From positions 1,235,897 to 1,267,896 of the forward strand of contig OY970170.1 of the NCBI GenBank assembly GCA_963706795.1: a stretch of DNA of 32,000 nucleotides. Reading direction: 5' to 3'. The position numbers and the translations under genes were made by a program. Shown in pieces: positions 2,091 to 25,175 of this stretch. The notes below the pieces were generated by a model that was given only the letters and a program-made list of their open reading frames with translations, did not search any database and had not been told where the DNA came from. The stretch's first letter is position 1. Each line of letters opens with the position of its first letter. Origin of the DNA: Candidatus Saccharimonadota bacterium (GTDB lineage Bacteria > Patescibacteriota > Gracilibacteria > BD1-5 > UBA2023).

Positions 2091-2127
2091 AATCTCTAGC
2101 ACATTCCCGTGCTAGAGATTTTATTTT
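2091..2127. terminator. Bidirectional intrinsic terminator between convergent genes
   Basis: Perfect 12-bp stem aatctctagcac (2091-2102) / gtgctagagatt (2109-2120), 6-nt loop, then ttatttt. It lies between the stop of 1434..2090 (+) and the stop of 2126..5356 (-). Confidence 0.8.
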
Positions 2128-5100
2128 ACTTCTGTATATCTTTCCCTTCCTTGATCTTGTCTACTGCAGTTTTGGATGCATCTCAGACAATTGGGGTTCG
2201 AGTTCTGGCTGAGTCTACAAGTTTTTGGTGTGCCTCGAGTTCTTTTGCAGTATTTGCTGCTGCCTTTTCTGAAGCTTTCTGCGCGATTTGCGCTTCGGCT
2301 TCTGCGGCAGTTAAGAGTTGAACTGGATGAAGCTCAGATGGAGCAGCATCAATCACTTGTACTCCATTTCGTACTTCAACGGTACGTTTTACTTTACCAT
2401 TTCAACGTATTTCATCAAATAGGTAGCTTCTGCGACCATTTATAAGTTTACCAGAAGCATCGAATGTTCCGGATTCGACCACCATTCCTGTACCAGTATC
2501 ATCACGTCGTCTTCGGATTCCATCGGTGAGATTGCCATTTACATCAAAATTTCAACGCTCTTGGAGATTGTGATTTACAGTACCGTCGTTATTTTTAGCA
2601 TACCGAGTTCCAGCTTTGCCTGTGAGTCCATTTGGATGAAGCTCACCAATAAAGAGCGTGTGATTATTTTCGTAGCGCTGACTCGTTGTTGCCTCATGTG
2701 GCGAGACATTTGTTGGGGCTGGTGGCACAAAAGGGACTCCGAGGAATTCAGCATGATTCTCGGGAGGACGCGGAGAATTTTCTGGCTCGTATCTCACAAA
2801 TTTTCCGTCCTTTATTGCATAGTGGGCATGTGTTCAGTTTGCATTTCGCATACTCACAAGACCATCCCAGAGGATCCCATAGTTATAATTTCCAGTTTCA
2901 AATCGTTCAAAGGTGGCGGTTCCTGATCTCGATTCACCTTCTAGGAGATTTCCTTCCTTATCAAAACGCCCCTTCTTGTAGCTCTGAGGGTTGACCGTGC
3001 CATCAGCATGTTTGTCATAGAGCGTTCATTCTTTTGGCATTCCATTTTCGTATGTTTTGCCCTCAAAATGAAATCGATCACCGATTTTTGGCTTAGAAGA
3101 AAGTCCTTCGGATTGACGTGCATATGCGTATGGTTCTGGGCCAGTACGTGCGTTTTCTGGAGTAGTATTTCGAGGTTCAGGACGACTCGCACTTGGTGCT
3201 GGTTCAGAATTTGGACGCATTTCTACAACTGCGATTCCTCCGTCAGGAGTGCGCTTTACGCCCATCATTTTATTAACACCACCGGTCGCTGTACGGAAAG
3301 CCGCCGCCATGATGAATGCTTGGGCGATTTGTTCTGGCGAATATGAGAACTTGTCATCAAAGGCAAGTTTAAACGCAAGTTGACTTCCGATGCCGGCAAT
3401 ATTGAGCGCGGCTCCGTCGATAATAGCTCACGTACCAAATCGTACGAGTCCATTGCCCATACGACTCACCCGCCCAAGCATGTTATTTCCAGCAAGCACT
3501 TTAGTTACACCACCCAACACTCAAGCAAAGAGGATCGAATCCCCAAGTCCACGCCATGAGTACATATTTGTATCTTCTTGTGCAGATCTTGCAGCACCGT
3601 GTCCAAGCTCAAAAGCAGCTCATTTTCCGATGAATGTATTGCCTGCTTTCATTCCGTAATTTGCGAGCTTTGCAAAACGCGTAGCCTGAAGACCAGTGGA
3701 AGCGACATTTACAATTGCCGTACCTAGGCCGAGGGTCATCATTCCTGCAGCGAGAGCAACTGATTCAATCCCAGCCATATGCAAGAACTCTCTAAATGAG
3801 CGCGAAGAAGCATTAAATGTACCCGTTCCGAGAATCGAGGACGCCATATCGAGCTCAGAATCTTTTTCGTAGTCTCAATTCCAGTCGACATTTTGATTCA
3901 AAAAGGCTCTCAGATATGCAATGCGGAATGCCTCATCGAGACCCCGCTGCATATGGACTGATTCTGCTTTGTTTAGAAGCTCGCTTTCGGGTTTTGGATC
4001 ATTTGTCTGCGCCTTGTATGCACGAACATATGATGCGCCATTCGCCACCCAATCTTGTTGGAGCGCCTTTTTGACGGACTCCATCTCTTGGCGGATTTCT
4101 TTTGAAGCCTTTGCCTGATCTGCGACATTGAGAGGCTTCGCAAAAGGAATCGTCTCGCCGAGTTCGATCTTGGAGATGAGCGACTCTGCATTGGTGATAT
4201 TCTTTGTATGACTTCGTGCGATCTGTGAAACTACGAGATCATATTGCCCGATACTGTCTTTGATGAGTTTATAGAGTGTAGCGCGTCGCTGTACGGGATT
4301 TTTGTCATTAGAAAATGCTGACATCCAGTGCCAAACAACTCATTTGTCTGGCTCAAGAATATATGTAATTTTCTTGGCAAATTCGTTGATATCACCTCAT
4401 TTTATAACGTATTCGTCCACGAGTTTCCAGGCCTTAAGCGCTTGGGATTGCTTATTTTGGTACTGTGCGCTGTATGCCTCAAGAAAAATCGCCATATCAT
4501 CAGCCCAGCCAATTCGACTTTTTTGCTCTGGAGAAATCTGAGCTTCGGCTCACTGTTTTGCAGCATCTACATAATTTGCATGCCAGATAACTTTTTCGGT
4601 ACCATTCTCACCAATGAGATAATATGCACCATCTCGCACAACCATACCGATTGCAGGAGCACCGAGAACTTTGAGTGCCTCAGACTGTGTAGCTGGCGCG
4701 CTCTTAAGTGGAGCAGCAGGAGCCTTTTTTGGTACTGAAGCCTGAGGTACAGATGGAGTAGCATCTACCTTTGGTGCAGGCTTTGCAAGAACAGCAGGAA
4801 TAGAAACAGGTTTTTGCTCAATTTTTTGAGCATCCTGCGAAGCAGGCTTTGCAACCGAAGTTGGTGTAGGAGCAGGAGTTGGAGCTTTAGGAGTAGCAAC
4901 TACATGGGGAGGAACAGAGGCAACTGGCGCACTCTTTTGCGCTTTTGTTTGATCAACATTAGAAGTCTTAGGTTTTTCTCCGGCCTGCTTTTTGAGGACT
5001 TCAACGAGGCTCCCAAAAGTTTCGGGTCCAGGAATGCCATCTACTCGGATTTCTTCTGCAATCTGAAATTCTTTAATCGCGTGCGTGGTTTCAGTTCCCA

Positions 5101-5356
5101 TCATCCCATCAATTCCATGCTCAGGGAGTTTGTAACCAAGAGTCACCAGCGTCTTTTGGATAATAAGGACCACTGCAGCGCTATCTTTAGGAGAATCTGG
5201 ACGATGAAAAGGCTGATTTTTATACTCAGCGAGCTTTGTAAGCAAAAACTCATTGGTGAAGCCTTGGATAGCTTCTTTTACGTCCTGATCTTTTTCGAGA
5301 TTGAGACCGGTTTTTACCTGCTCTTTGACCCAGTTTGGGCTGTGCTCAATAGACAT
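2126..5356 (-). CDS. Large (1076 aa) envelope-associated protein: N-terminal peptidoglycan-binding-like domain, Pro/Ala-rich linker, Gly-rich hydrophobic segment, C-terminal MORN/YwqK-like repeats
   Basis: Five track ORFs (4550..5356, 3875..4324, 3620..3847, 3026..3310, 2552..2797) are all in one frame. I translated the gaps and they contain only TGA (12 in-frame TGAs by my count). PG_binding_1-like 'LIIQKTLVTLGYKLPEHGIDGMMGTETTHAIKEFQIAEEIRVDGIPGPETF'. Linker 'APTPAPTPTSVAKPA...'. Repeats such as 'FEGKTYENGMPKEGTLYDKHADGTV...YKKGRFDKEGNLLEG'. TAA at 2126-2128; an upstream in-frame TAA lies just 5' of ATG 5356. Confidence 0.8.
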
Positions 5357-10328: not shown

Positions 10329-10354
10329 ATGAACTTACAGAAAGGAGAAATCAA

Positions 10355-10384
10355 AAACAGAAGGTGAAAACCTTCTGTTTTTTT
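10355..10384. terminator. Bidirectional intrinsic terminator
   Basis: aaacagaagg (10355-10364), tgaaaa loop, ccttctgttt (10371-10380), then tttt. It lies between convergent genes 9909..10328 (+) and 10400..10912 (-). Confidence 0.8.
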
Positions 10385-10399
10385 GTGATACGATATTGC

Positions 10400-10912
10400 C
10401 TATTCAGCTTTTTTTCACTGTGCTCGTGCGATAGCATCCATGGCCTGATTATGGCTATTTTGGAGAATGTTTTCGAGTTTTTGATGAGTTTGTTCTTCGC
10501 GCTCTAAAGCAAACTTTTCATACGCTGCATACATATGCGAAATAAAGGCATGTACCACAACACGAGCCTGATCAGGAGCGAGCTTTGCTCGACCAAGGGC
10601 ATCAGTATTATTCAAAATCGCGCCCATTACATGTGACATATGAATAGGGAGCGCCAAATTTTGATGCGTGACCATTGCTCGAATAAGACCATTCATATGC
10701 TCATTCTCAAAGAAACCAAGAACTGTCTCTCTGTCTAAAGCATCTTTTTTACTTCTTCCATTCCCAGGAAGCATTGGGTATCTTGCTCCCGCAATAAATG
10801 CCTTCTTTTCGGCTGCAAATACTGTGGCGATGTTTTCTTTGAGATTGTTTTCAATCTCGGCGAGAGCCATTGCTTCGTTACCATGAAGATCCGGAGTCTG
10901 TGATGCTGACAT
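10400..10912 (-). CDS. Hypothetical His-rich protein (170 aa), last gene of the Fur/NAS/COG0523 operon
   Basis: Track ORF 10415..10978 reads through TGA 10415-10417 to TAG 10400-10402. The likely start is ATG 10910-10912 (MSASQTPDLHG...). Several His clusters (THQNLALPIHMSHVMG, VVVHAFISHMY). Confidence 0.5.
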
Positions 10913-10987
10913 ATTATCAGGGTTATTGGACGATATCCTCAAGTTTAGCACAAGAGAGATATGGACGCAAAAAAACACTAATATACC

Positions 10988-12508
10988 CTACGCGAGATAG
11001 TTCTCCCACTTCGCAATTCGGCCATCAGTTTCAAAATATTCAAATTCTGCCCATTTGGACATTACTTCCTTATCCATGGAGAGTTTTACAATGGCTCCGT
11101 CAGACTGGAGTAATTCATCGATAGTTTTTGTGGCACATGAAGGATCGAAGAGATCAATCCCATGTTTCTCCAAAAGAATTTTTACAAGGAAATCGAGCCG
11201 CTTATGACAGATATATGTTGGGCTTTTTGAATGCTCTCTGAGCTCGGCTACGGTCTCAACTTTTTTTGGAGTTCTCGCATATGCACGACGCTTGTATTCG
11301 AGCCAGCTGTAGGGATCTGGATATTTCATGGATTCACCGAGCGCTTTTTGTTCCGCCTGGATACGAGCAATTTCGAGCCAAGAAGCATCAGAAGCCCCAT
11401 CCTGAAAGCGTGATTGAATCATTGATATTTTTGCGTCCATAGCCATATACGCGTGATACTGACTCACAAGCTTATCTACGCGCTCCTCGGATAATGCCAC
11501 AAATGCCTCAATAGTATCTGGAATCATAGGAGAAGAAATTGATTGGATTGTGTGTGTAATTGAATGGTCACTCACTTGCTCAAAAATGAGTATTTGCGAA
11601 GGCGTCATGGGGCTCACAGTTATAATATTGAGATATGGAGCCACGCTTGTGTGCTTGGAATAGACGAAACTTCCGTGAACAAAATCAAATTCGGTTTGCC
11701 CGATTACACCTTTTGCACGCATGACATTTGTTCCAAGAGACGCGATGGCCAGATCAAGATCCTGCCGAGAAAAATTCGCATGCAACTCAAAGCTTCTCGT
11801 GAATACTGGCGCCTTTTTTGTAGCTGATCTGGTATTCATATGTGAGGTCGGAGCAGATGCACTTCTCAAAAAACTCGGCTTTGATTCGGGCTTTTTAGGG
11901 AGATGATCGAGTAGTCACAAAAGGGATTCGTAATCCTGCTCATGTGGATGTGATTCGAAGGATTCTTGACTCGATCAATCGATCTTTCTGAGTTGTACGA
12001 TCGGAGCAGATGGAGCGAGTCGACCTATCCATTGCAGAACATTGTCCGAATTCCCCTCAGTCCACGTGAGTCCGACGATATCCGCAGTCCTCATCTGAGT
12101 ATCCATCACCACTCTCTCCGCCTCAGAACGAAGTGGAAAATGCTCGACATCCGAGAGCACAATCGTCGTCACACGAAACCCAGTTCGCTTCATAAGAGCA
12201 AGAATGGCAGGTCATTCGGCAATTCCACTCGGCTCAACAATCAGGAGTTCTGAGGAACCCTTCGCTTGATGCAGGGCATTGGAGAGAGATTCCATGTCTT
12301 CGCAGCAGATACACCCCTCGGTGAGCGCGGTCACGTCAGCATCACTCAAACGAGCCGCATCGATATTAATTGATCCAACGTCATTGACGATAATTTTGGT
12401 TTTCTGCTTAAATCGCGAAAGCATCCATCGGATTAGTGACGTTTTTCATGATCCAAGTGGCCCAAGGACCAATAGGGCTCGCGAAGTATCGGGACTGTGC
12501 ATTGTCAT
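10988..12508 (-). CDS. COG0523-family (CobW/ZigA/YeiR-like) metallochaperone GTPase with about 200-aa extra C-terminal region
   Basis: Track ORFs 12212..12424, 11975..12193 and 10988..11869 are in one frame, joined by TGAs at 12446, 12212, 11975 and 11915. 'LVLGPLGS-G-KTSLI' Walker A (TGA 12446-12448 is the Gly of GKT); 'TEGCICCEDMESL' (GCxCC); 'LLIVEPSGIAEG'; CobW_C-like 'VMRAKGVIGQTEFDFVHGSF'. ATG 12506-12508, TAG 10988-10990. Confidence 0.85.
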
Positions 12509-12513
12509 ATCCA

Positions 12514-13332
12514 CTACAGTGATCAAAGAATACAAGAATTCACAACACCAGACGGTGGATTACAATACATCACTTCTGCGTATCCATCCGGAAGCCACGA
12601 AGTTTGCATCTCCGGATAGAGAAATGTTCTGTAACCGAATGCTGTACGAAACAATACGGTCTGTCCTGACCTACTCGAATCCAAGATAGATTGAGCAATT
12701 ATTCGTTTTGTCACTGCATCACATCCCGCAAGTGCAGCAACAAAAATACAGTCGTACTCTCCATAGCCAGAGAATTTTTCGGCTGACCCATGGAGAATTC
12801 CAACATTCTCTGCGAGCCCTATTCGGCTGATGAGCAGACGAGAGAGCTCACAGGCATTTTCATTGCTATCAAGACAATCAACCCCTTCTATAAATGCATC
12901 CTGCATTAATATTGGAGAGAGTGGCAGTGGTCCTGATCCCACAAAAAGCGCCCTACGTGCAGAACCGAGCCCACGTTCTTTTCGGTACTGATGGATCAAT
13001 GATATTTCCCATGTACTGAGCAACCGATAATTTTGCATATACGGAAATATCTCAAGATCTTTGAGACTCAAAGGGTCTTTATTTTTAAGAAGCAAATTTG
13101 CCCAATGATGCTCGAGAAGGGATTCTCACTCTGAGCACAGAGACTGCATTTTGGAGCGCAATGAGCGAGTCGGGATATCCCAAAAAAGCTCAGAAATATC
13201 CCCGTCATGCCCCATAACCGTCTCTACCAAACGCGAGAATTCACCATTTACCGTCGGCGAAGGATGAAGCGAATCCTCCCGTGAAAGCCGATCATATATC
13301 GTCTGAATTACTTCAATACTACTATGCGTCAT
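12514..13332 (-). CDS. Nicotianamine synthase-like (NAS/CntL-type) SAM-dependent aminobutyryl transferase
   Basis: Track ORFs 13126..13332 and 12523..13095 are in frame, joined by TGA 13126-13128 ('LCSE-G-ESLLEHHW'). NAS hallmarks by recollection: 'SLHPSPTVNGEFSRLV', 'FPYMQNYRLL', 'ALFVGSGPLPLSPILM'. It reads through TGA 12523 to TAG 12514-12516. Confidence 0.8.
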
Positions 13333-13735
13333 GCCCCGCTTTTGTTACACAAGAAGGACAATTTCCCACATGCGTCTCACGATGGGATTCTAGGATATTT
13401 CCTGCACTATTTTTGAAGTGCTCATCACTAATACTCCCACATCCATGACAGTGAGTGAGTTCAAAATGCCTCGATGGTTCTCGACCATTTCGGATCTCTG
13501 CACAGAGTACAAATGACTCCACGCCATGCTCATAGAGAGCATGGATAAGTCCCGCATCCCGAAAATCAGAAATACCTCGATAGAGCGTCGCAAGATTTGC
13601 ACCTGTACGAGATATGTAAGCTTCTTTGAGCGAATCAAAGTCGCACGCATTCTGCTCAGATAAAATCTCAAGCAACGCCACTCGCGACTTCGTTGCACGA
13701 CATCAGACAGAATGAATAATTGAGGAATGGTCCAT
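13322..13735 (-). CDS. Fur-family metalloregulator (Zur-like)
   Basis: 'ATLYRGISDFRDAGLIH' (wHTH), 'HFELTHCHGCGSISDEH' (HxHxxCxxC-type site) and a second 'CPSC'. ATG 13733-13735 (one TGA at 13703), TAG 13322-13324. It overlaps the NAS start by 11 nt. Confidence 0.8.
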
Positions 13736-13807
13736 GAGACAGCATTAAAAATGATCCTCACTATATGCGGATTTATTTTATTGCAAAAATTTGCATTAAA
13801 ATCTCAG

Positions 13808-13884: not shown

Positions 13885-14775
13885 ATGAAAGTCTTTCCAC
13901 TCGCAACGATTCTATGAGGAAGCCTTCTCACTGGAGTAACGTATTTTGCTAATCCAGACTCAGGAAGTCACGCATTGACCCAAGAGGTAAAAGCAAAGGT
14001 AAGCAATACTTCATCGTGGAGGGATTCGCCATTTGCTCATGGACAAAAATCCTCTAAACAGTGAGAGGTTTTAAGCCCTGAATGAGATGACCCTTTGGTT
14101 TGGCTCGATGCACATCGAACAGTAAAAATGCGCATACAGGGAACTTCTTGGTATCGTGATTACCTCACTTGAAAGCTGGATAAAGAACTATTTAAAAGAA
14201 ATCTCGCAGATGCTCATTCGATAGAGCTTTCACTCGAAGCAAACCAATGAATGCTCGAAAAAATACAGCATCAAGAATGGTGGCACAGATACCTCACAGG
14301 AAAGACCGAACCACATTTTATGCTCGTAAGTGTCATTTGAGCATTCATACAAAATGAACAATTCGAAAAAGGGAATCCTGAGATAGTTGCAAAGATACGA
14401 AAAGATCCACGCTGGCAAAATACGCTACTCAATCCCACAGATACCAATGTGCTCGCACAAAATATCATCATCTCTGAGCTCATAACAAATGCAATGGATA
14501 TCAACAATAATCCACAATTGCAGGAGAGGCTCTTGAAATATGGTTTTACCCAAGATGACTTTTATACAGCTGGCTGGGAAAAAACTGAATGAGTTTTTAG
14601 CGTCTTCCGTGACATCAGCATTATTGAAGATCTCAATATGTGGTCCGCGCTAGAGAGAAAGACATTCCTAGAAACGGACATATGAAAAGCCTATTTAGAA
14701 GGGAAAATTGAACCAAGCATTGCACTCACGCATATGTCAAAAATCTCGGATACATTGATGCATGGTAGCAAGTAG
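13885..14775 (+). CDS. Secreted protein of unknown function (296 aa), absent from the standard-code ORF track
   Basis: I translated it codon by codon. ATG 13885, 8 in-frame TGAs, TAG 14773-14775. Signal-like MKVFPLATILGGSLLTGVTYFA. Internal repeat 'SWYRDYLTGK' / 'WWHRYLTGK'. A strong terminator follows. Confidence 0.7.
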
Positions 14776-14819: not shown

Positions 14820-16949
14820 CTACGAAACTTCTTCTCATTCTGGTGGAGTATTTTTAGCATTCATGATCTTATGGATCCTATTCCCTACTATCGTTCCGAG
14901 GAGTTCTTTGTAGCGTTTTCTTTCGGGATTTACACGGGTCTTGCGACTTGGGAGAGCAGAATGAATAACAAGATCAAGTTTTTGCTCCTCGGTCATCGTC
15001 TTTTTGTAGTTCACCATATTGCGACTCGCGCGACAAGCAAAGGCGTCAATTCGGCCGTAAAAACCTGACTCTTCAGCTCGGATACGGAGATCATCCAGGG
15101 TTTGTCCACTATTCGTATTGTCATCGAAGATGAGTAGCCAGTTCTGATCTCGCATTTGATGCCTCGTATCATCATCAATAATAGACTTTTGCATGACCTC
15201 GGCGATGGGATAGTCAGCCAGCTTGAGGAATGAATTGGCATTTTTGACGTCATAGATCGAATAGACGATATTTCAGACATTCGCGAGCACCTGGCCACTA
15301 TTCACTGACTTCGAAAAAACGTATTTTGCATAGAGCCCAGTGAGCGCGCCACCATAGTTTACGCCCATGATATGCAGGACATCCTTTGTAGGCTTATAGC
15401 CCTTTTGGATAATCATATTAAGTGCATTTTGGGCAGTCTTGATCATCACGAGTGGATCGTTTTCTTCTCTATAGAGACGAATGATCTTTTTGAGTGCCTT
15501 CTCATGGACGATTGTATTTTGAGGCTTCGTCGTTTTTTGTTTCTTTTGAGCTCGCTTCTCGCCGTCAGCCACATAGCTGTCCATGAGCTTAAAATATGAC
15601 TCGAGGAGTTGTAAAATATCTACAAATTCAGCACGCATCATATCGGTTTTACCCGTGTTGATCTCAGGGAGTTTATTTGGGATTTCTCAAACAATCTTCA
15701 CATGTGCTATGTCGTTGTTTCAGAGCATTATATCCATCGAATACCCCACATGACTATCGAGCATACTCAATAAGGCATAATGTCAGTCTTCGTCTCATCG
15801 AAGAGTTTCCTGAAGCTTTTTAAACTCTGCAAATTCGTGCGGACTAGTACTCTTGATATGACGAACTTCATCGCGCTTAAACACGAGACTTCCCTCGTAG
15901 TCAGGATTAAGGAATTGCTCACTATAGAGAAGCTGAGCAGCATTCTGCATGAATGCCAGCATATTAATCTTCGCATCCAAAAGTCCGAGAAGAATCTTCT
16001 TCATCGACTTATGCGTGTTAATTTTTATATACTTGTTGAAGATCTTGTCTATATCAAGCGCAAAAGTCACCTTCGCATGCTGTAAAAGCAAACTTTGATT
16101 CGAGAGAAATTTGAGAATATGATGGAATAAATGCGCCGTCGGAGTCTTGGCAAAATCCTGGACCATATTACGAAGCTGCTCAAGACCTTGCAGTGTCTGG
16201 ATTCACTGCGTAGTAAAAAGATTGTCTAATTCTTGGTTTGAAGTTTGATTCTTTTTTTTGAGTTTCCGCTCCAAACGTCTCAGATCACCTGGAGCCAAAA
16301 GATTAAAAATATCCCGCGAGAAATCATCCAGATTATGCGTCAGCCCGTTCCAAAGCATCTCTTCGTAATAGGTGCTAAATAGTCGAATATTCTGATCGAT
16401 CGAATTATAGTGAGCCAGGAAATCATGCTTAAAACCATCCATATTTACATCGAGCACATCATGGTCATTGATCGACGAAAACCGCTCCTTGGTATCTACC
16501 AATACACTCGGAAACTGGAAATAGTATTTTTGGTTTCGAAATATGAGATTGCTGCCATGTTTATAGACAAAATCATTCTTGAGATTGAGCAAATACGCCT
16601 CATGAAGCCAATGAGATCACTCAATCGGGTTACCGTCCTTGTCTAGACTTACAAACAAACCTGTGAGCTCATTTATGTCCTCTTTGTTTAATTTGATAGC
16701 TCCATCTACATGGAAATATTCTTTAAGGAGTGAATTAATTTCATCACCTGCGAGAACATCCAATGAGCGCTGTTTTATATAATCAGTTATCCCTGTAAGC
16801 TTATTTTCAAAAGGAATACTGAGCTTTTTAATGCGCTCAGATTCACTCATTTCATCCTTGGAGAGCTCATCTGAGATTGCAAAGAGTACCTCAGGAGTGA
16901 GTTCTACACTTGGCTCGTCAGGAGATGAGACGATATGGAAATTTTTCAT
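14820..16949 (-). CDS. Large protein (709 aa) with C-terminal phosphoribosyltransferase-like domain; N-terminal about 450 aa of unknown family
   Basis: Track ORFs 16617..16949, 16203..16592, 15795..16166, 15273..15641 and 14835..15194 share one frame. The gaps contain only TGA (8 in total). PRT-type motifs 'HIMGVNYGGALTGLYAKYVF' and 'WLLIFDDNTNSGQTLDDL'. ATG 16949 (in-frame TAA upstream), TAG 14820-14822. Confidence 0.75.
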
Positions 16950-17630: not shown

Positions 17631-20600
17631 CTATTTTGAAAGCTCTTGAGCTAATAATTCGCTCTGTTCAATCACACGATCAGCCTCAATCTTTGCGAGG
17701 TCTGGTGGATACCCATAGCGCATGAGCACTTTTTTTACCGTGAGACGAAGTTGAGCGCGAACATCATCACGTTTGTTCCAGTCGACTGTAGCATTCTTTC
17801 GAATGATATCTACGATCATATGGATCAATTCCTTCATCTTATGATCCTCCAGAAATTCTGTCGATGTGTTCTGCGAAAGTATAGAATAAAATGCATATTC
17901 TTCGGGGGTGAGACCAATCTCCTTTGCTCGCATATCCTCAATCCTCATATCGCGTGCAATCTGTGAAAGTTCCTCGATAATCTGTGCTGTATCGAGTTGA
18001 TTGTTATGGTAACGCTTAATCACATTTCCAAGCATTTCAGAGAACTTTTTCCCTTGAGCAACATTCTTTTGTTTGCGAACCTTCACCTCCTCAGTGAGAA
18101 GTTTTTTAAGGAGTTCAAAAGCAAGATTTTTGTGCTCCATGTTTTTCACTTCTAATAGAAATTCCTCTGACAGAATCTCAAGTGAAGGAGCTTTGATTCC
18201 TGCTGCTTCAAAAATATCTACCACTCAATCCGAAGACAAAGCTTCTTCGACAATCTGTCGGATCGCCGTATTTACCTCTGCATCACTTTTTCAACCAGTA
18301 GGTGAGAATTTATTGATTCGTGATTTAATAGCCTGAAAGAAGGCAATATGATCCTTGATTTGTTCCGCCGCAACACTCGGTACAGCCATTACAAAGAGTT
18401 TTGAAAGCGCAGACACTTCAGCGAGGAATCGATTCTGTGTATCTTCACTTCGAAGGATGAAGTTTTGTGCAGCGAGCAACACATGAAGCTTCTTTCAGGT
18501 TTCAGCAGTGAAATACGACTGATAATCGAATCCGTGAAACATCTGAGAAACAATCTCGAATTTTGTTCGCATCCCAGCTATTACCTCCGCAATATCCAAT
18601 ACTGCTTGCCCCTGTCACCCATTGTCCGTATACGTCGACATCGCATTTCGCAGATCTTGTCCGATACCGATATAATCAACAATCAATCATCCTGGCTTAT
18701 CTTTGTAAACGCGGTTCACACGTGCAATTGCCTGCATAAGGTTTGCACCTTCCATTTTCTTGTCGATGTACATCGTATGGAGCGACGGTGCGTCAAATCC
18801 TGTCAGCCACATGGACTGTACGATCACGAGTTGCAGGGAATCATTCGGATCTTTGAGCCTAAGGGCTAATGCCTTGCGCTCATCCTTGGTAGTGTGATGT
18901 GGCTGGAAATCTTCAGGATCATCTGTTGAGCTCGTCATCACGATCTTCAAGAAACCCTTCGTAAGATCCTGATCATGCCATTCAGGTCTGAGTTTCACAA
19001 TCTCAGTATATAGGTTCACTGCGATCTGTCGTGTCATACACACGATCATCCCCTTTCCTTCGAAGATAGCCTGACGCGCTTCAAAGTGATCAACGATATC
19101 CTTCGCAATATCCCTCAATCTATCTGGATGCCCCACGATACTATCGATCTGTGCATTGCGTTTTTTTGCTTTCTCTTTCTGCTCAGGTGTTGCATCTTCG
19201 ATCTCATCGATCGCTATATCGATCTGAGCAACAGCCGCATCGTTCATCTTGATCTTCACAAGTCGACTCTCATAACTAATCGGCACAGTTGCGCCATCTT
19301 GAACCGCCTGTGCGATATCGTAGATATCCACATATCCACCAAATACTGCAGGTGTAGACTTATCTTCCTTCTCGATCGGAGTACCCGTGAATCCTATGAA
19401 AGAAGCCTGAGGAAGCGCATCTCTCATATACTTTGCATTCCCGTACTTGATCTCGCCATCAAGATCAACCTTTCCCGTGAAACCATACTGACTTCGATGC
19501 GCCTCATCTGCAACCACTACAACGTTTGAACGATCCGTAAGAACCTCGAAAGAATTCTGCCCATCTTCAGGATAGAATTTCTGAATTGTCGTGAAAATAA
19601 TCCCACCACCTGATACTTTGAGAAGCTCCTTCAAATGCGCACGATTATTCGCCTGGACTGGTTTTTGTCGCAGGAGGGAGACACAGTTCCCAAATGTTTG
19701 AAATAGCTGTTCATCGAGATCATTACGATCCGTGAGTATCACGATCGTAGGATTCTTCATCGCAGGTTCTACAACGAGTCTTCCAGCATAGAAGACCATG
19801 GAGAGTGACTTCCCAGATCATTGAGTATGCCACACAACCCCAATCTTCTTGTCACCATCTTCTGCAGTGGCACGCAAGGTTTCCTTCACTGCCTTCTCCA
19901 TCGCGTAATACTGATGATACGCAGCAACTTTTTTGATCTTGATTACAGAGAGCACTCCCGTTTCTTTATTCTTTACTTCTTCAGCTTCAAATACTGTATT
20001 GTATCTGATCAATTCGAGCAGAGTTTTCTTCTCGAACATTCGCTCCGCCAAGATCTGAAGCTCAGGCAATACCCCATTTTCCTTCTTCTCAGGTGATTTC
20101 CACACGAGATAACGTGAGAACGGTGCAGAGACACTCGACACTCGTGCATCGAGCCCGTCAGAGATCACGCAAAGTGCATTGTAATAGAACACAGAAGGAA
20201 CCGCCTTCTTGTAGTTCTGAATCTGTGTGAAAGCTCGCTCCAATGTAGCATCCTCATCCATTGTATTCTTGAGCTCAACCACGACAAGTGGGAGTCAATT
20301 CACAAACAACACAACATCCAGTCGCTTTTCATTGTTATTTTCCTTTACTACGAACTGATTCACCACACAGAAGTGGTTATTCTCTGGATTCACAAAATCC
20401 ACCAAGTTCACACTCACCCCCTTCGACTGCCCATCCGTGAAATACTCCACCACTACCCCATCCGTTAACATCTGATGAAATACCTCGTTGTTCATCATTA
20501 GATCATCCGAATCAAAGCGACGAATCTTTGAAAGTGCTTCGATTCGAGCAGATTCTGGGATGTGAGGATTGAGACGGTCGATAGATGTAGTTAGTACCGT

Positions 20601-20744
20601 ATCTAAAATAACGCCGTCAAAACTCGAACGCATAGGGGTTGAGCTGTATGGAGAGATATCTGGACCATAGAAATACTCGTAGCCCTGAGATTTGAGGAGA
20701 TCTACGAGGTTTTGTTCGATGGAAGATTCGGTAAGGTGGGGCAT
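17631..20744 (-). CDS. hsdR: Type I restriction enzyme, R subunit (1037 aa)
   Basis: Five track ORFs (20295..20744, 19818..20282, 18687..19799, 18291..18482, 17631..18224) share one frame. Joins: '[17 protein letters not shown]' (TGA 20295) and '[18 protein letters not shown]' (TGA 19818, helicase motif I). Also '[11 protein letters not shown]' (DEAH) and a C-terminal '[21 protein letters not shown]' region. 7 in-frame TGAs. TAG 17631-17633. Confidence 0.95.
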
Positions 20745-20748
20745 AGAC

Positions 20749-21300
20749 TTATATATGAAGTTCTTGAGGTAAGAATCTATTTATTTCATTATCTGACCAA
20801 GTAAATTCTTCATCTCTATTCTGTTTTCATAACAAAGATAACTGAGCCTCAGTGTAATCAGTATATGTTGTTTGTGAGGATAGTCAGACAATAATTTGAT
20901 ACTGTTCCTGATATAAATCTCTTCTTCAAATCGTTTCATCTTCGCTCAAACCACCTATAATATCAACTATAAAGTTTTTATATTTATCTCTCAAGTTTAG
21001 AAATTGCAGTGCAATTTTTTTAAACTCCTGTGCTCTTTGTTCTATAGAAAATTCTTTCTGGAGGAATAAGAAAATTATCTCAGAAACCGTTAATGCAACA
21101 GATACACCTCCAAAAATATTACTGTCTGGAAATTTAATCTGTAAAATAAGGAATACTAGAATCAAGAAAACATCAATGATGTTTACCCACTTAATCAATC
21201 ATTGAACTTTTTCTAGTCTATCACACGCTTTTTCATAAACCTTGTGATTAAAGACGCATTGAGCAAATTGCTGTCTTACCACTGAAAGATTTCTATTCAT
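20749..21300 (-). CDS. SLATT-like two-transmembrane effector protein (183 aa)
   Basis: ATG 21298-21300. N-terminal helix, two adjacent TM helices (LIKWVNIIDVFLILVFLILQI; IFGGVSVALTVSEIIFLFL), then a helical tail '...YTDYTEAQLSLLGKQNRDEEFTWSDNEINRFLP'. 4 in-frame TGAs. TAA 20749-20751, 4 nt before the hsdR ATG. The assignment rests on architecture plus the SMODS neighbour. Confidence 0.55.
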
Positions 21301-21311
21301 ATTTTAGAAGA

Positions 21312-22190
21312 TTATCATGTAAATTTTGATCAAAATATTTCCCTCCATTTTTGATTAGCAGAATATTCCTTTGCCTCCGATTCATACTGCATAGCCTCTA
21401 TCGCTAAGTTATATGCCAATTTTGCCTTGTACTCAAACTTTCATCCCCTCCATACGTACTGACCACTTCAAGGTGCAAGCCAGTAAGATTTATCCTCATC
21501 CTGTTCTTTAAGGAATTTAAAGAAATCCCTTACCATCCAATCATAATACAAATAAGATTTATCCTTTTGCGCCCAATTCTTCATAAAATGATAGCATAAT
21601 GTATCAATCAAAAGCCCTCACATTGGTACATTCCAATAATCTTTCCATACCCTAGTAATTCTGCATAGTCTTTTTAAATTAAAATTCCAGTCTTCATTCT
21701 TCTCCCTAATTTCCTTAATCTCAGGTTTTGGATTTGTCTTCTTCCAAGAACCTCAATCGTTTGAATCAGGAAAAGTATAACTATCGTCAGTTTTAATAAA
21801 GGCAGGTACTATTTCAAAACAGATTCAATCATTCCAGTTGATTCAAATAACTTGTCCATCCCCTTTTATATGTGTTGTAGGATATGTTTTCTGTAATGAT
21901 GATCTAATTGCTTGCAACAATGCAGACTGTCAGTTTCCAGTATAATTGTTATACGTTTCATACAGTGAATCTGGAAGTTGAAAAATTACATCAATGTCAC
22001 TTACATGTATGTCTGTATCTCTACCATAAGATCATACGTATAGACTATGGCTATATTCTGATTCTGTGGACCAAAAATCTTTATTTAATCTCTTTGTGAT
22101 AGATCTATAGCGTACTGAAATCGTATCTATATTATCAATATCGATACGAATATTATCGCAGAAATTTTCAAATTTAGTTGTAATAGACAT
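21312..22190 (-). CDS. SMODS / CD-NTase-like nucleotidyltransferase (292 aa)
   Basis: This is the only frame free of TAA/TAG across 21315..22193; I enumerated every tta/cta. 10 in-frame TGAs, so the track shows no ORF here. Pol-beta NTase core 'YVGSYGRDTDIHVSDIDVIFQLP', 'GICFEIVPAF', 'PDSNDGGSWKKTNPKPEIKEI', 'RLCRITRVWK'. ATG 22188-22190, TAA 21312-21314. Confidence 0.75.
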
Positions 22191-22203
22191 AGATTAACAA
22201 GAA

Positions 22204-23436
22204 CTAAATTAAAGATGGTAAAATTTCTCCGCTCATCAACCTTGGCAATAGCTCATCGCGAGTTCTCGAGAGCAATGCTACTTGAGCTAAGTTATTATAG
22301 ATTTTTCGAAAAATTGGCTTAACTTTCTCATCAAATCCCCTTACTCTCTCAATATTTGGAACAAGCACCTCAAGTTCTTTTATCATGGTCGAATTAATCG
22401 CTGTGACTATCGATGAAGTACTTCATAGTGAGTTGAAATCCAGTTTCTGAAGATAGCAATATATAAATTCGGTACTCAATGCAGAGTTGCCCTTGATTTT
22501 CAGGTGAGCAATTGCTTCATTTGAGAGCATCTCTTCGGTGGTAATCGTTAGTTTACCGACAGTCATTTTGAAACTCAATATCGTTGTATTGATAGGAATT
22601 ACTGAGATATTGAATTTCTTAATTGCCTCATCTATCAGATATTCTGAAGTTTCAAAAATATATGTTTTACTATTTCCGATATCCTTTATAGAAATCCACT
22701 TTTTCCCTGTTGGAGATTTTGAAAACCACTCCGGTTGAATACGAGGAGGAGTTCTTCAGATTGTAATATCAAACTCCGTCCCTAATTTTCCTACTCTCCA
22801 ACCCTCCGGCAACTCATCATCTACGCCATACTTCCCAAATAACTCCTGAAAAATTGTCTGCGCAGTTTTCTCAAGTGTCTCATTTTGCTCTCGAAGAAGT
22901 TCGATCTTATCATCGAAACTTGAAAGTATTTGAGCGATTGCTTGTTGTTCAGGGAGAGAAGGAAGAAGAATAGGATATTCAGTAATTTGTCTCTGGCTTA
23001 TATGCGGGATAGATGTTCCAGTATGAACCTTTGCTACATAGGATTCAAAATTCTTATTTAGAATGAGATGTGCTATGAAATGCTGATCTGAGATTCATGG
23101 TTTCCTTCTTAAACATGCTACTCGCTGAGCCAATATTAGTGGCAGTTCTTTTTCTTGAACCATAGACCTATTTTTTCCAACCTTTGATCCATCCATTCAA
23201 ATTACTATGTCATCTTTTTGTAAGAAACACTTTTCCAATCCATCCGTAGAATGATTCCAATACTTCACAATATCCCATCTAAGAAATCATTCCGAGACAT
23301 TTTCTCATCTTACGACTCTCAAATTTCAATTCGAATCATATAAATTTCACTTGAATGATTCTCACGTAAAAATATCCACAACCTTCCCCAAAGTCGTCTC
23401 CATCCACCCTTCAGGAATCATTTTTTCATTTCTCAT
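22204..23436 (-). CDS. hsdS: Type I restriction enzyme, S (specificity) subunit (410 aa)
   Basis: The frame is open from 23496 to TAG 22204, with 9 in-frame TGAs. 'IPEGWMETTLGKVVDIFTG', 'LAQRVACLRRK', 'HTGTSIPHISQRQI', central 'LPEQQAIAQILSSFDDKIELLREQNETLEKTAQTIFQELF', second TRD 'LPEGWRVGKLG...', C-terminal 'RTRDELLPRLMSGEI'. Confidence 0.9.
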
Positions 23437-23437
23437 A

Positions 23438-23908
23438 CTACTTTTGAGGATTACTCATTTGATTAAGTACGCTATCCACCGCCTTTCATGGTAAGTTTAT
23501 ATCTCCTGTGTTAGTTCATGGAGTGTTTACTTTCTCAGCAATGTTCTCATAATCTGGCGTAACTTTATAATTTCCTCGATTACTCCTATAAAGCTTCCAA
23601 TTCTGTGCCCATTCAATCGCAGTATCTCGGAAACTTTTGTCTATCTTACCGTAATTTACAAGTGTCTCTGAGCCTCAAAATCAGATAGTCATAAATGTTA
23701 CGAGATAGGCCACAGTAATCACCCCGACTTTGTTCTTAAACCATTCAACTTTTGTAGTCAGAAGATATGTCAGAAAAACGAGCAAACAAGCGATTCCGAT
23801 TGCTATAAGCCAGAAGATGATCGTGAATACCGCATAAATAATCACCGCGAGGATTACAATTCCTATCACTCATTGTTCTACGAATCTTTCTTTTCATTTT
23901 CGACCCAT
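23438..23908 (-). CDS. Small membrane protein (156 aa; 2 N-terminal TM helices plus soluble tail), unknown function
   Basis: Track ORF 23681..23869 extends to ATG 23906-23908 and through TGAs (23681, 23675, 23516, 23486) to TAG 23438-23440, 1 nt before the hsdS ATG. Confidence 0.55.
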
Positions 23909-23952
23909 ACTACTTTTGGTTATCAGACAAAGGTTTATGCACTTCAAATAAT

Positions 23953-25089
23953 TTATTTCTCCAGGATATCAAAATAAGACCTAAATACGAAGAGTCGATT
24001 TCTTTTGTTGCCAGTGATTTCCACAAGTATGCCAAGCTTCACAAAATCTTGTATGAGATCGTTTGTCGCTTTTGGGGAGAGATCTGTAATCAATTGCACG
24101 TTTCGCGAAGATACGATGGGCTTCTCGAAAAGTTTCTCAAGCAAGGTATGTGCGCTTTGCATCTTCCTTCCAAGAGTGGGAAGTGAATTTTTGGTATGAT
24201 AGTCTTTCAGATCTAGGACTGCCTTGAGCGAAAGCGTTGCTTCATTTGCAGTTTGTTCCACTCACTCAAGGAAGAAAAGCACCCAAGAGAGAAGATCGTT
24301 TTTCTCTCTAACCCAGGTGAGCTTGTCGTAGTAGAGGGATTTGTTCTTTTCGAAGAAATCAGATACATACAAGAGTGGTCTATGGAGTATACCGTTACTT
24401 ACTAGATAGAGCGGTATCATGAGTCTCCCAGTTCTGCCGTTCCCATCGAGAAATGGGTGTATAGTCTCGAACTGATAGTGAGCTATGGCAATCTTTATGA
24501 GATGAGGAAGTCACACGGCGTCATTATGGAGGAATTTCTCTAGATCAGACATGAGATCACTTACGTGTTCTTGACTCGGGGGTATAAATTTTGCATCAGA
24601 CAGACCCGCACCGCCAATCCAATTTTGACTCGTTCTGAATTCTCAGGGACTCTTATCCCTTCCTCGCACATGAGAGAGAAGGATCTTGTGGATTGATTTA
24701 ATCAAGCGGTTTGAGAGTGGGATATTCTCAAGTTCTTCGATAGCAAAATTGAGAGATTCACGATATTGAATAGTTTCCCTCCAGTCATCCCGTTTTTCTG
24801 GTTGGATATCTCATTCATCAGAAAAAGCCTCTTCAATATTGGTTTTTGTTCCCTCTATTCGGCTTGATGTGACCGCTTCCTTCATGACATATGATTGAAG
24901 GAAAAGTTCGATATTTGGGACAAATTTTGAAAAGGAATTGAGCTCACCAAGCTTAAATGATGCGGATTCAAGTTTCTTCTGAAGAAGAGGATGTGAAAAA
25001 GTCCATTCATGATTTATGGTTTCAGGAAGGAAGTACTTATACTGATAAGCATTTCTCCAAACTCCAGATGTAAAGGTCTCGATCTGCAT
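23953..25089 (-). CDS. Fic/DOC family protein (378 aa)
   Basis: Track ORFs 24811..25089 and 23953..24261 are in frame. The translated gap contains the Fic motif '[12 protein letters not shown]', preceded by '[14 protein letters not shown]'. N-terminal Fic_N-like 'SSRIEGTKT', wHTH-like C-terminus. 4 in-frame TGAs. TAA 23953-23955. Confidence 0.9.
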
Positions 25090-25175
25090 AGAAGTAAATT
25101 ATATATTTCTATAATTTAGTTTATCAGTTAAAAGTAAAATTACAATATCCATATTTTACTTTTGAACGTTATCCA

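What the first reader, a model, noticed from the sequence alone, without database searches (positions are those of the whole stretch)
10400..13735. Fur/Zur-like regulator, nicotianamine-synthase-like enzyme, COG0523 GTPase and His-rich protein: a metallophore/zinc-sparing operon in a CPR-type genome
Four co-directional genes have overlapping or 5-nt spacing for the first three. The NAS-like enzyme carries the GSGPLPL SAM-binding signature. In bacteria, such enzymes are the CntL step of opine metallophore (staphylopine/pseudopaline) synthesis. No CntM-type opine dehydrogenase or CntK gene is adjacent. The product, if any, would therefore be nicotianamine-like, or the pathway differs. Coupling to a COG0523 metallochaperone and a Fur-family repressor is the classic signature of a zinc-limitation regulon. 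Metallophore biosynthesis is unexpected for an organism type thought to be a metabolically minimal episymbiont.
Basis: partly seen in the sequence, partly recalled or inferred. Interest (0 to 1): 0.75.

Follow-up and report, generated by a model that had tools for sequence, protein, structure and literature searches.

The report
Nicotianamine-synthase and metallochaperone operon, Patescibacteria
An ultra-small bacterium that reads UGA as glycine carries a metal-regulated operon. It pairs an enzyme for a nicotianamine-type metal chelator with a metal-delivery GTPase fused to an unknown protein domain. The same three-part module is conserved in about 80 species of ultra-small bacteria, including human oral ones, and I found no description of it in the literature I could search.

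Summary
The genes are real once TGA is read as glycine (code 25). On the minus strand lie a Fur-family regulator (13322-13735), a full-length nicotianamine-synthase (NAS) homologue (12514-13332), a 506-aa COG0523 GTPase (10988-12508) and an orphan ORF (10400-10912/10978).

There are two corrections. The GTPase is a fusion: its last ~175 residues are a conserved, unannotated all-alpha domain ("X") with no Pfam model and no relative in the PDB. The "His-rich protein" has only 5.3% His and no relative anywhere I searched.

NAS->COG0523->X sits in the same order in 66 of 67 testable species-representative loci. These are mostly Saccharibacteria, including oral Nanosynbacter, plus Gracilibacteria. 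A metalloregulator is usually adjacent: Fur-type in most, MntR-type in two.

The NAS keeps the catalytic Glu and Tyr. It also keeps a Glu reported as specific to nicotianamine-forming plant NAS. It scores closer to archaeal NAS than to CntL. No CntM, CntK or transporter belongs to the conserved core.

The best reading is a metal-repressed module that makes a nicotianamine-type ligand for a cytosolic chaperone. A secreted zincophore is less likely, and zinc specificity is unproven. I found no prior description in the searchable literature.

The parts
13782..13795 (-). Palindrome TGCAAATTTTTGCA, the candidate operator of the Fur-family regulator
   Evidence: It is the only TGCAA-N3-6-TTGCA match in the 32 kb window, where 0.27 are expected by chance. 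It resembles the conserved TTATTGCAAC-AAA-TTTGCAATAA found 50-60 nt upstream of NAS in Saccharibacteria loci, TGCAAATTATTTGCA in L002, and GCAACTAAGTTGC upstream of Fur in L003. The spacer is 1 nt shorter here. Binding has not been tested.
13760..13787 (-). Promoter-like site TTTGCA-16 nt-TATAGT upstream of g1
   Evidence: Consensus scan, 9 of 12 matches. Its -35 hexamer is the right arm of the palindrome. A consensus match only.
13322..13735 (-). g1: Fur-family metalloregulator, 137 aa, one in-frame TGA=Gly at 13703-13705
   Evidence: Pfam FUR 27.1 bits against a cut-off of 23.1. Two CxxC motifs (CHGC, CPSC) are read directly from the sequence. Metal specificity is unresolved.
12514..13332 (-). 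g2: nicotianamine-synthase-family aminocarboxypropyl transferase, 272 aa, TGA=Gly at 13126-13128 and 12523-12525
   Evidence: PF03059 E=1.6e-42 over the full length. Best PDB relative is MtNAS; the profile scores MtNAS at 118 bits and CntL at 55 bits. GSGPLPL is at residues 132-138. E74 and Y102 align to the catalytic MtNAS E81 and Y107, which correspond to AtNAS1 E77 and Y106. E70 corresponds to AtNAS1 E73.
11519..12508 (-). g3, N-terminal two thirds: COG0523 (CobW-type) P-loop NTPase plus a CobW_C-like region
   Evidence: PF02492 E=3.2e-23 over aa 12-156. The alignment to YjiA shows Walker A GPLGSGKT, the CxCC motif GCICC and the switch-II motif EPSG. The G4 motif reads TWTE instead of (N/T/S)KxD. 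CobW_C scores only 12 bits, below its cut-off.
10988..11515 (-). g3, C-terminal 175 aa: domain X, a conserved unannotated all-alpha domain, here fused to the GTPase
   Evidence: BLASTP gives 32% identity, E=2e-23, to the separate 201-aa gene downstream of cobW in L002, and 31%, E=3e-21, in L003. The family holds at least 280 proteins, none with a Pfam domain. AF2 model pLDDT is 96.5. Foldseek finds no PDB match (best E=1.5) and the sequence profile finds none (best E=0.18). Motifs: H-x-x-SPTYICHKR and GRIAKWENY.
10400..10978 (-). g4: lineage-specific helical ORF. Its start is ATG 10912 (170 aa) or GTG 10978 (192 aa). One TGA lies at 10415-10417.
   Evidence: No Pfam or NCBIfam hit. 5.3% His. 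No relative in 86 loci or in metagenome contigs. The AF2 single-sequence model has pLDDT 58.6. It lies inside the transcription unit by position only.
10353..10382 (-). Terminator-like hairpin (13-bp stem) just downstream of the g4 stop
   Evidence: Consensus scan. It lies between g4 and the convergent plus-strand gene that ends at 10328.

Best explanation
This is a metal-repressed operon for handling metal inside the cell.

Proposed steps:
1. When the cognate metal is scarce, the Fur-family repressor (g1) leaves a palindromic operator that overlaps the -35 box. g1-g4 are then transcribed as one unit.
2. The NAS homologue (g2) transfers aminocarboxypropyl groups from S-adenosylmethionine to build a nicotianamine-type polyamino-carboxylate chelator. 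No opine-dehydrogenase step follows.
3. The chelator serves mainly as a cytosolic, low-molecular-weight metal ligand.
4. The COG0523 NTPase, with its fused X domain (g3), moves the metal between the chelator pool and apo-proteins. X acts as the adaptor that binds the chelator-metal complex or the client protein.

The metal is most likely Zn, but Fe or Mn are not excluded. g4 is a lineage-specific add-on of unknown role.

Shown: the gene identities, the conserved catalytic residues, the conserved NAS-COG0523-X synteny and fusions, and the metalloregulator adjacency. Inferred: the product, the metal, the cytosolic site of action, the role of X, and repression at the palindrome.
For: - NAS family membership with conserved catalytic residues in 73-74 of 74 module enzymes.
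- E70, which corresponds to AtNAS1 E73, is invariant. An insertion sits where plants have VGMD. Both features are reported as specific to nicotianamine-forming plant NAS and required for activity (PMC10248798).
- No CntM or CntK in the window or in the relatives' flanks.
- NAS->cobW->X occurs in 66 of 67 testable loci, with 2-4 nt spacings or overlaps, for example in L055.
- cobW and X are fused in the window, L006, L007, L008, L009 and L089, which argues that they work together physically.
- Relatives' chaperones carry His/Cys-rich metal-binding tracts: L089 has HHDHCCHDHGHSHGTHHHSHPH and L087 has HIHEHVHGADCDHEHSHDD.
- A metalloregulator is adjacent in nearly all loci: Fur divergent in 58 loci and MntR-type in L006 and L009.
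- L006 adds two MinD/CooC-like ATPases between NAS and cobW-X.
- A conserved palindrome sits at the promoter.
- No transporter belongs to the deep-conserved core. The ArsP_1+DUF1980 pair is present in only 40 of 70 loci, all within one Saccharibacteria subclade.
- High-GC NAS loci in other bacteria place NAS among Opp-type permeases and an MFS gene.
Against: - No biochemical data exist, so the product and the metal are unknown.
- All characterised prokaryotic NAS-like enzymes belong to exported metallophore pathways (CntL) or have an untested physiological role (MtNAS).
- Exporters or importers could be encoded elsewhere in the 1.27-Mb genome, which I could not read.
- In one Saccharibacteria subclade a permease pair lies directly downstream.
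- The G4 motif of this GTPase is degenerate (TWTE), so its nucleotide cycle may differ or be lost.
- The window's palindrome has a spacer 1 nt shorter than in Saccharibacteria.
- The Fur match in g1 is only marginally above the Pfam cut-off.
Confidence: 0.45

Rival explanations
1. Secreted metallophore. The NAS product is exported, scavenges Zn or another metal outside the cell or from the host surface, and is re-imported. The COG0523 protein only distributes the imported metal.
For: NAS-family enzymes in bacteria are known as the CntL step of exported opine metallophores (PMC7438024). The operon has a metalloregulator and a COG0523 gene. In Nanosynbacter-type loci an ArsP_1 permease plus DUF1980 pair and a DUF475/TerC membrane protein follow the module. 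Many carriers appear, from their record titles, to be host-associated MAGs, where metal withholding by the host would apply (the ecological point is inference).
Against: No exporter or importer lies in the window, and none belongs to the core conserved across Gracilibacteria, L002, L003, L089 and deep Saccharibacteria. There is no CntM. The enzyme scores closer to MtNAS than to CntL, 118 against 55 bits. NAS clusters that look like true metallophore clusters do include Opp and MFS genes.
Confidence: 0.3
2. X is an enzyme or client that completes a different pathway. NAS makes an intermediate that X, metallated or assisted by the COG0523 NTPase, converts into a new nicotianamine derivative or cofactor. 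X would functionally replace CntM.
For: X always follows cobW and NAS. It has invariant His, Cys, Lys, Arg, Tyr, Trp and Glu residues suggestive of a ligand or metal pocket. Its fold has no known relative. There is one weak hit to the octopine-DH helical domain, E=0.094, in 1 of 33 members.
Against: X has no nucleotide-binding motif. It is all-alpha and small (175 aa), with a long coiled-coil hairpin. The octopine-DH hit is at chance level, and neither the structure search nor the PDB profile search reproduces it.
Confidence: 0.12
3. The NAS-family enzyme has a role unrelated to metals, for example making an azetidine or aminocarboxypropyl compound used for host interaction. The chaperone and regulator adjacency would then be incidental.
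For: SAM-derived azetidine chemistry has been reported in CPR genomes for the unrelated AzeJ family (PMC11794875). The product here is untested.
Against: Two different metalloregulator families (Fur and MntR) and up to three metallochaperone-type NTPases are recruited to the same module in different lineages. The context differs from AzeJ clusters, which carry radical-SAM enzymes and aminoacyl-tRNA synthetases.
Confidence: 0.08
4. The block is a decaying or silent horizontally acquired island in this genome.
For: GC is slightly raised (0.43-0.48 against 0.38-0.42 in the flanks). It lies next to a defence island. It has a mosaic pattern of nearest relatives. The G4 motif is degenerate.
Against: All reading frames are intact under code 25, with catalytic residues kept. 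The genes are tightly coupled. A promoter/operator and a terminator are in place.
Confidence: 0.05

Closest known systems
Nicotianamine synthases proper (plant and fungal NAS, e.g. AtNAS1) and archaeal MtNAS (thermonicotianamine synthase, PDB 3FPE)
   Same: Same Pfam family over its full length. The SAM motif GxGPLPL and the catalytic Glu and Tyr are kept. Like plant NAS, and unlike MtNAS, the module enzymes keep the second Glu (AtNAS1 E73), usually Cys69, and an insertion at the VGMD site.
   Different: Only about 30% identical to MtNAS. I made no direct alignment to a plant sequence; the correspondence rests on residue spacing and the paper's numbering. The product is unknown. The enzyme is encoded in an operon with a COG0523 chaperone and a metalloregulator, which I did not find described for NAS.
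Cnt opine-metallophore operons (staphylopine, pseudopaline, yersinopine: CntK/L/M plus exporter and importer)
   Same: A NAS-family enzyme in a metal-regulated operon.
   Different: No CntM opine dehydrogenase, no CntK, no EamA or MFS exporter, and no Opp or FecCD importer in the window or the conserved core. The enzyme profile scores CntL at only 55 bits against 118 bits for MtNAS.
Zur-regulated COG0523 metallochaperones (ZigA, ZagA/YciC, YeiR, YjiA, eukaryotic ZNG1)
   Same: Walker A, CxCC and switch-II motifs. The gene is adjacent to a Fur-family regulator. Relatives carry His-rich tracts. From my own knowledge, ZigA has been linked to mobilising a histidine-bound Zn pool, which is conceptually close to a chaperone working on a small-molecule ligand pool.
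   Different: No NCBIfam subfamily cut-off is reached; the best score is 44 bits. The G4 motif is degenerate in the Gracilibacteria-type proteins. The C-terminus is fused or coupled to domain X. The gene is obligately linked to a chelator synthase. Zn specificity is not shown.
High-GC bacterial NAS clusters without CntM (L001, L088)
   Same: NAS without an opine dehydrogenase. A Fur-family gene lies nearby in L001.
   Different: Those clusters embed NAS among SBP_bac_5 and BPD_transp_1 permeases, a methyltransferase and an MFS gene, and they lack cobW and X. That is the layout expected for an exported metallophore.

Membership tests
Nicotianamine synthase family (PF03059) | Full-length match above the Pfam gathering score | tested here: met
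   146.2 bits against a cut-off of 27.1, E=1.6e-42, profile positions 9-268 of 276.
Nicotianamine synthase family (PF03059) | SAM-binding glycine-rich motif G-x-G-P-L-P-L | tested here: met
   GSGPLPL at g2 residues 132-138. G132, G134 and P137 are invariant in 74 of 74 module enzymes.
Nicotianamine synthase family (PF03059) | Catalytic Glu and Tyr (MtNAS E81/Y107, AtNAS1 E77/Y106, essential by mutagenesis) | tested here: met
   g2 E74 aligns with the residue that is Q in the E81Q mutant chain 3FPG. g2 Y102 aligns with MtNAS Y107. Both are conserved in 73 of 74 enzymes. Essentiality is taken from PMC10248798.
Nicotianamine-forming NAS (plant and fungal type) as opposed to NAS-like enzymes (MtNAS, CntL) | Second Glu (AtNAS1 E73) and the VGMD motif near the reaction chamber | tested here: inconclusive
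   E70 is invariant in 74 of 74 enzymes where MtNAS has Gly. g2 has AGCD, and most relatives AGDS, where MtNAS has a gap. The correspondence to AtNAS1 rests on residue spacing, not on a direct alignment, and the product is untested.
Nicotianamine synthase family (PF03059) | Aminocarboxypropyl transfer from SAM with release of MTA | not testable with these tools
   This needs an enzyme assay.
Cnt-type opine metallophore system | CntM opine dehydrogenase adjacent to the NAS-like gene | tested here: not met
   No PF10100 or PF02317 hit in any window ORF. No such gene in the flanks of L002, L003, L005 or L055.
Cnt-type opine metallophore system | Dedicated exporter and importer in the cluster | tested here: not met
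   None in the 32-kb window. A permease pair is present only in one Saccharibacteria subclade, 40 of 70 loci. The rest of the genome was not available.
COG0523 (CobW-type G3E GTPase) | Walker A GxxGxGK[ST], the CxCC metal motif, and switch II ExxG | tested here: met
   GPLGSGKT, GCICC and VEPSG, aligned to YjiA. PF02492 E=3.2e-23.
COG0523 (CobW-type G3E GTPase) | G4 guanine-specificity motif (N/T/S)KxD | tested here: not met
   g3 reads TWTE where YjiA has TKTD. L006, L009, L005 and L089 read TWNN, TWIS, TRDD and TWWE. Saccharibacteria keep SKLD.
COG0523 (CobW-type G3E GTPase) | CobW_C C-terminal domain | tested here: inconclusive
   12 bits against a cut-off of 22, over aa 239-269.
Fur family; specifically Zur | Fur fold with the two structural-Zn CxxC pairs | tested here: met
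   PF01475 27.1 bits against a cut-off of 23.1. CHGC and CPSC are present.
Fur family; specifically Zur | Assignment to the zinc-sensing Zur subfamily | tested here: inconclusive
   g1 hits only Irr and Fur models at 21-24 bits. The relatives' regulators score 54-63 bits against Fur and 25-33 bits against Zur, all below cut-off. L006 and L009 use an MntR-like regulator.
Genetic code 25 (Gracilibacteria/Absconditabacteria) | In-frame TGA at positions that are conserved Gly in homologues | tested here: met
   The Walker A Gly in g3, the LCxxGE Gly in g2, and the GGG of the SAM motif in L005. The X domain's best match is in a Gracilibacteria MAG, 46%.

The most novel reading that the evidence does not exclude
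NAS-COG0523-X is a self-contained metal-trafficking system largely specific to Patescibacteria. In it, a bacterial enzyme makes authentic nicotianamine or a close analogue as the cell's intracellular metal currency. A COG0523 NTPase, working through the previously unseen X fold, loads metal from that ligand onto client proteins. This would be the first true nicotianamine synthase in bacteria, the first small-molecule partner defined for a COG0523 chaperone, and a host-relevant trait of human oral Saccharibacteria.
Probability: 0.3. Interest if true: 0.85.

Novelty: new variant of a known kind. Interest (0 to 1): 0.7.

Why it matters
Patescibacteria are viewed as metabolically minimal. A conserved, SAM-consuming chelator pathway tied to a metallochaperone would show that they invest in their own metal economy.

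The module is present in Nanosynbacter-type Saccharibacteria from human-associated samples. That group has cultivable and genetically tractable members, so the hypothesis can be tested directly.

The module could give COG0523 chaperones, whose ligands and clients are mostly unknown, a defined small-molecule partner. It could extend nicotianamine biology from plants and fungi to bacteria. It also supplies a new, confidently modelled protein fold (X) with a clear genomic hook for working out its function.

Tried and rejected
- Table 11 reading: rejected, because the genes are fragmented.
- TGA=Trp (code 4): rejected, because TGA falls on the Walker A Gly and on the GxGxG glycines.
- First genome-contig scan with g2 alone: no relative found, so this genome is not a GTDB species representative.
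- Exact look-ups of the table-11 fragments P0001 and P0155: not on record. The HsdM look-up gave only a 13.5-kb Logan contig, so the organism name and the rest of the genome were not obtained.
It was re-run with an alignment headed by the table-11 fragment.
- Generic methyltransferase reading of g2: rejected (GidB E=0.22).
- CntL membership: rejected on profile scores and the absence of CntM.
- X as an opine-dehydrogenase helical domain: one hit at E=0.094 in 1 of 33 members, not reproduced by Foldseek or the PDB profile search.
- X as a seryl-tRNA-synthetase arm: 5 of 33 members hit, read as coiled-coil resemblance only.
- g4 characterisation: the AF2 single-sequence model was too poor to search, and there are no relatives in the loci or in metagenome contigs.
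- Metagenome scan with Gracilibacteria-type X patterns: nothing found.
- AzeJ-type azetidine synthases reported in CPR: a different family and context.
- ArsP_1/DUF1980 literature search for a zinc link: uninformative.
- Rfam scan: only the tRNA-Lys gene.
Full report
**Observation**

Under the standard bacterial code the region is a set of short fragments. If only TAA and TAG are stops, the minus strand is tiled by long ORFs. The largest ORF grows from 504 to 1,076 aa, and the summed ORF length from 7,907 to 21,909 aa.

TGA encodes glycine, not tryptophan:
- In g3 the TGA at 12446-12448 is the invariant Gly of the Walker A motif GPLGS-G-KT.
- In g2 the TGA at 13126-13128 is the conserved Gly of LCxxGE.
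- In a related locus (L005) the three glycines of the SAM motif are written TGA-TGA-TGA.

The transcription unit on the minus strand is:

| Gene | Coordinates | Length |
|---|---|---|
| g1 | 13322-13735 | 137 aa |
| g2 | 12514-13332 | 272 aa |
| g3 | 10988-12508 | 506 aa |
| g4 | 10400-10912 or -10978 | 170-192 aa |

g1 and g2 overlap by 11 nt. The g2-g3 gap is 5 nt and the g3-g4 gap is 9 nt. All four genes end in TAG. A promoter-like site (TTTGCA-16-TATAGT, 13787-13760) precedes g1. A 13-bp-stem hairpin (10382-10353) follows g4.

**Identities**

- g2 is a full-length nicotianamine-synthase family protein (PF03059, E=1.6e-42, profile positions 9-268 of 276).
- g3 starts with a CobW/COG0523 P-loop domain (E=3.2e-23).
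- g1 passes the Fur gathering score only narrowly (27.1 against 23.1 bits).
- g4 matches nothing. NCBIfam adds no subfamily assignment.

Against solved structures, g2 matches only the archaeal thermonicotianamine synthase MtNAS. A profile of g2 and its relatives scores MtNAS at 118 bits and S. aureus CntL at 55 bits.

That alignment places g2 E74 on MtNAS E81. The E81Q mutant chain shows Q at that column. It also places g2 Y102 on Y107. According to PMC10248798, the equivalent AtNAS1 residues E77 and Y106 are essential. The same paper reports that E73 and the VGMD motif are conserved in plant NAS, differ in microbial NAS-like enzymes, and are also required for activity.

In 74 module enzymes:
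- The E73 equivalent (g2 E70) is invariant, whereas MtNAS has Gly.
- The catalytic Glu and Tyr are each present in 73 of 74.
- The Cys69 equivalent is present in 64 of 74.
- A 3-4-residue insertion (AGCD in g2) sits where MtNAS has a gap.

So the enzyme is not a generic methyltransferase. It resembles nicotianamine-forming NAS more than CntL. The product remains untested.

**The missed component**

The closest relatives of g2 in 1.84 billion representative proteins are only about 37% identical. Their contigs show the same gene order: Fur, NAS, cobW, then an unannotated gene of about 200 aa (L002, L003/L004).

BLASTP shows that residues 337-504 of g3 are homologous to that fourth gene (32% identity, E=2e-23; 31%, E=3e-21). 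So g3 is a fusion of COG0523 with this domain, which I call X.

Properties of X:
- It defines a family of at least 280 proteins of 175-205 aa. None has a Pfam domain, and the few that carry a source name are called 'hypothetical protein'.
- It has invariant Tyr, Trp, Lys, Arg, Glu, His and Cys positions, and the motifs FRxHCSKPGYICTKR and GRVAKWENY.
- With a 33-sequence alignment, AlphaFold2 gives a confident all-alpha model (pLDDT 96.5, pTM 0.89).
- Foldseek finds no PDB relative (best E=1.5, TM no higher than 0.34). A sequence profile finds none either (best E=0.18).

**Co-conservation**

I scanned one genome per GTDB species with the X alignment. This returned 80 loci, nearly all Saccharibacteria, including Nanosynbacter and MAGs whose record titles mark them as oral. 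The rest were Gracilibacteria, 'Peribacteria'-labelled MAGs, an unclassified Patescibacteria MAG, one MAG labelled only 'uncultured bacterium', and one 1.34-Mb contig labelled Gammaproteobacteria.

I built HMMs from my own alignments and ran them on six-frame ORFs:
- NAS and cobW lie upstream of X on the same strand in 66 of the 67 loci with enough flank.
- A Fur gene is divergent and adjacent in 58 loci.
- A second cobW lies downstream in 57 loci.

Gene junctions are tight. In L055 the NAS-cobW gap is 2 nt and cobW and X overlap by 4 nt.

cobW and X are fused in L006, L007, L008, L009, L089 and the window, but separate in L005.

Other variations:
- In L006 and L009 the divergent regulator is MntR/DtxR-type rather than Fur-type.
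- L006 has two MinD/CooC-like ATPases inserted between NAS and cobW-X.
- L089 and L087 chaperones carry His/Cys-rich tracts.
- The ArsP_1 + DUF1980 permease pair that follows X in Nanosynbacter is confined to one subclade, 40 of 70 loci.
- g4 and the other window neighbours have no counterpart in any locus.

**Regulation**

Saccharibacteria loci share the palindrome TTATTGCAAC-AAA-TTTGCAATAA about 50-60 nt upstream of NAS, in the Fur/NAS divergent region. L002 has TGCAAATTATTTGCA. L003, where Fur is co-directional, has GCAACTAAGTTGC upstream of Fur.

The window has aATGCAAATTTTTGCAATAA at 13782-13795. This is the only such palindrome in 32 kb, against 0.27 expected. It overlaps the -35 hexamer. 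Its spacer is 1 nt shorter than in Saccharibacteria.

This supports autoregulated, metal-dependent repression, but it is inference.

Zinc specificity is not established. The regulators score higher against Fur and PerR models than against Zur, all below cut-off. MntR-type regulators replace Fur in two lineages.

**Mechanism**

The conserved partners of NAS are cytosolic: a G3E-type chaperone, X, extra NTPases and metalloregulators. No transporter is conserved with them.

By contrast, high-GC NAS loci from other bacteria place NAS among Opp-type permeases and an MFS gene (L001, L088).

I therefore favour a cytosolic ligand-plus-chaperone system (0.45) over a secreted zincophore (0.30). X acting as a pathway enzyme (0.12), a non-metal role (0.08) and a silent island (0.05) are minor rivals.

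The degenerate G4 motif in Gracilibacteria-type proteins (TWTE) suggests altered nucleotide use.

**Literature**

Full-text searches found no paper that links nicotianamine synthase with Saccharibacteria, Patescibacteria or CPR in this sense. None describes a NAS-CobW operon.

The CntM-anchored survey of opine zincophores would, by its own statement, miss pathways that lack CntM (PMC7438024).

AzeJ-type azetidine synthases reported in CPR are a different family, found in a radical-SAM and aminoacyl-tRNA-synthetase context (PMC11794875).

**Verdict**

- The broader result is a conserved module, undescribed in the searched literature, that pairs a nicotianamine-type synthase with a metallochaperone and a new domain. 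It occurs almost only in Patescibacteria in the collection scanned.
- Novelty: a new variant of a known kind.
- Interest: 0.7.

Noticed in passing
window 20749-22190 (minus strand), inside the type I R-M operon at 17631-26690: A SMODS nucleotide-synthetase gene (21312-22190, E=4e-51) and a SLATT_4 two-TM effector gene (20749-21300) sit between hsdR (17631-20744) and hsdS/hsdM (22204-23436, 25176-26690). A Fic gene lies at 23953-25089. This looks like a defence island next to the metal operon.
   Followed up: partly
window 26806-28763 (minus strand): DUF6119 is split across two overlapping ORFs. 27402-28763 matches profile positions 52-362, and 26806-27441 matches positions 387-523. This could be a frameshift, a pseudogene or a programmed feature.
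   Followed up: no
window 13885-14775 (plus strand): An ORF of about 296 aa with about 10 in-frame TGA codons and a signal-peptide-like N-terminus is transcribed divergently from g1 and shares the 150-bp control region. It contains repeated W-Y/H-R-x-Y-L-T-G-K motifs. It has no Pfam hit and no relative in the 86 loci. Whether it belongs to the regulon is unknown.
   Followed up: partly
window g2 against g3 C-terminus; loci L002, L003, L005-L009: The parts have different nearest relatives. The window's NAS is nearest to L002, L003 and L089 (about 37% identity) and only 24-26% identical to NAS of Gracilibacteria L005, L006, L007 and L009. Its X domain is nearest to Gracilibacteria (L006 46%, L005 43%) and about 30% identical to L002 and L003. 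This suggests recombination or gene replacement within the module.
   Followed up: partly
window 12041-12060 region (g3 G4 motif); L005, L006, L009, L089: The (N/T/S)KxD guanine-specificity motif of COG0523 is replaced by TWTE, TWNN, TWIS, TRDD or TWWE in the Gracilibacteria-type chaperones. Saccharibacteria keep it as SKLD.
   Followed up: partly
L006 5111-6869: In a 23%-GC Gracilibacteria MAG, two paralogous MinD/CooC-like P-loop ATPases (PF01656) are inserted between NAS and the cobW-X fusion. An MntR-like regulator replaces Fur.
   Followed up: partly
L055 8337-13002, and 57 other Saccharibacteria loci: Downstream of the module in Nanosynbacter-type genomes lie DUF1980 plus an ArsP_1 permease, a DUF475/TerC membrane protein, pth, and a second COG0523 paralogue. 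This may be a wider metal-homeostasis neighbourhood.
   Followed up: partly
L010 (CAZQUL010000001.1, a 1.34-Mb contig): A MAG labelled 'uncultured Gammaproteobacteria' carries NAS-cobW-X-cobW2 on a single 1.34-Mb contig. Its size and the presence of the module suggest that the taxonomic label may be wrong.
   Followed up: no
window 14820-16949 (minus strand): A 709-aa ORF has no Pfam hit. Its C-terminus contains a PRPP-binding-like motif (LLIFDDNTNSGQTLDDL) typical of phosphoribosyltransferases. I read the motif by eye only.
   Followed up: no
window 2126-5356 (minus strand): A 1,076-aa protein has an N-terminal peptidoglycan-binding domain (PF01471), a Pro/Ala-rich linker and a Gly-rich hydrophobic region. 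It could be a surface or host-interaction protein.
   Followed up: no
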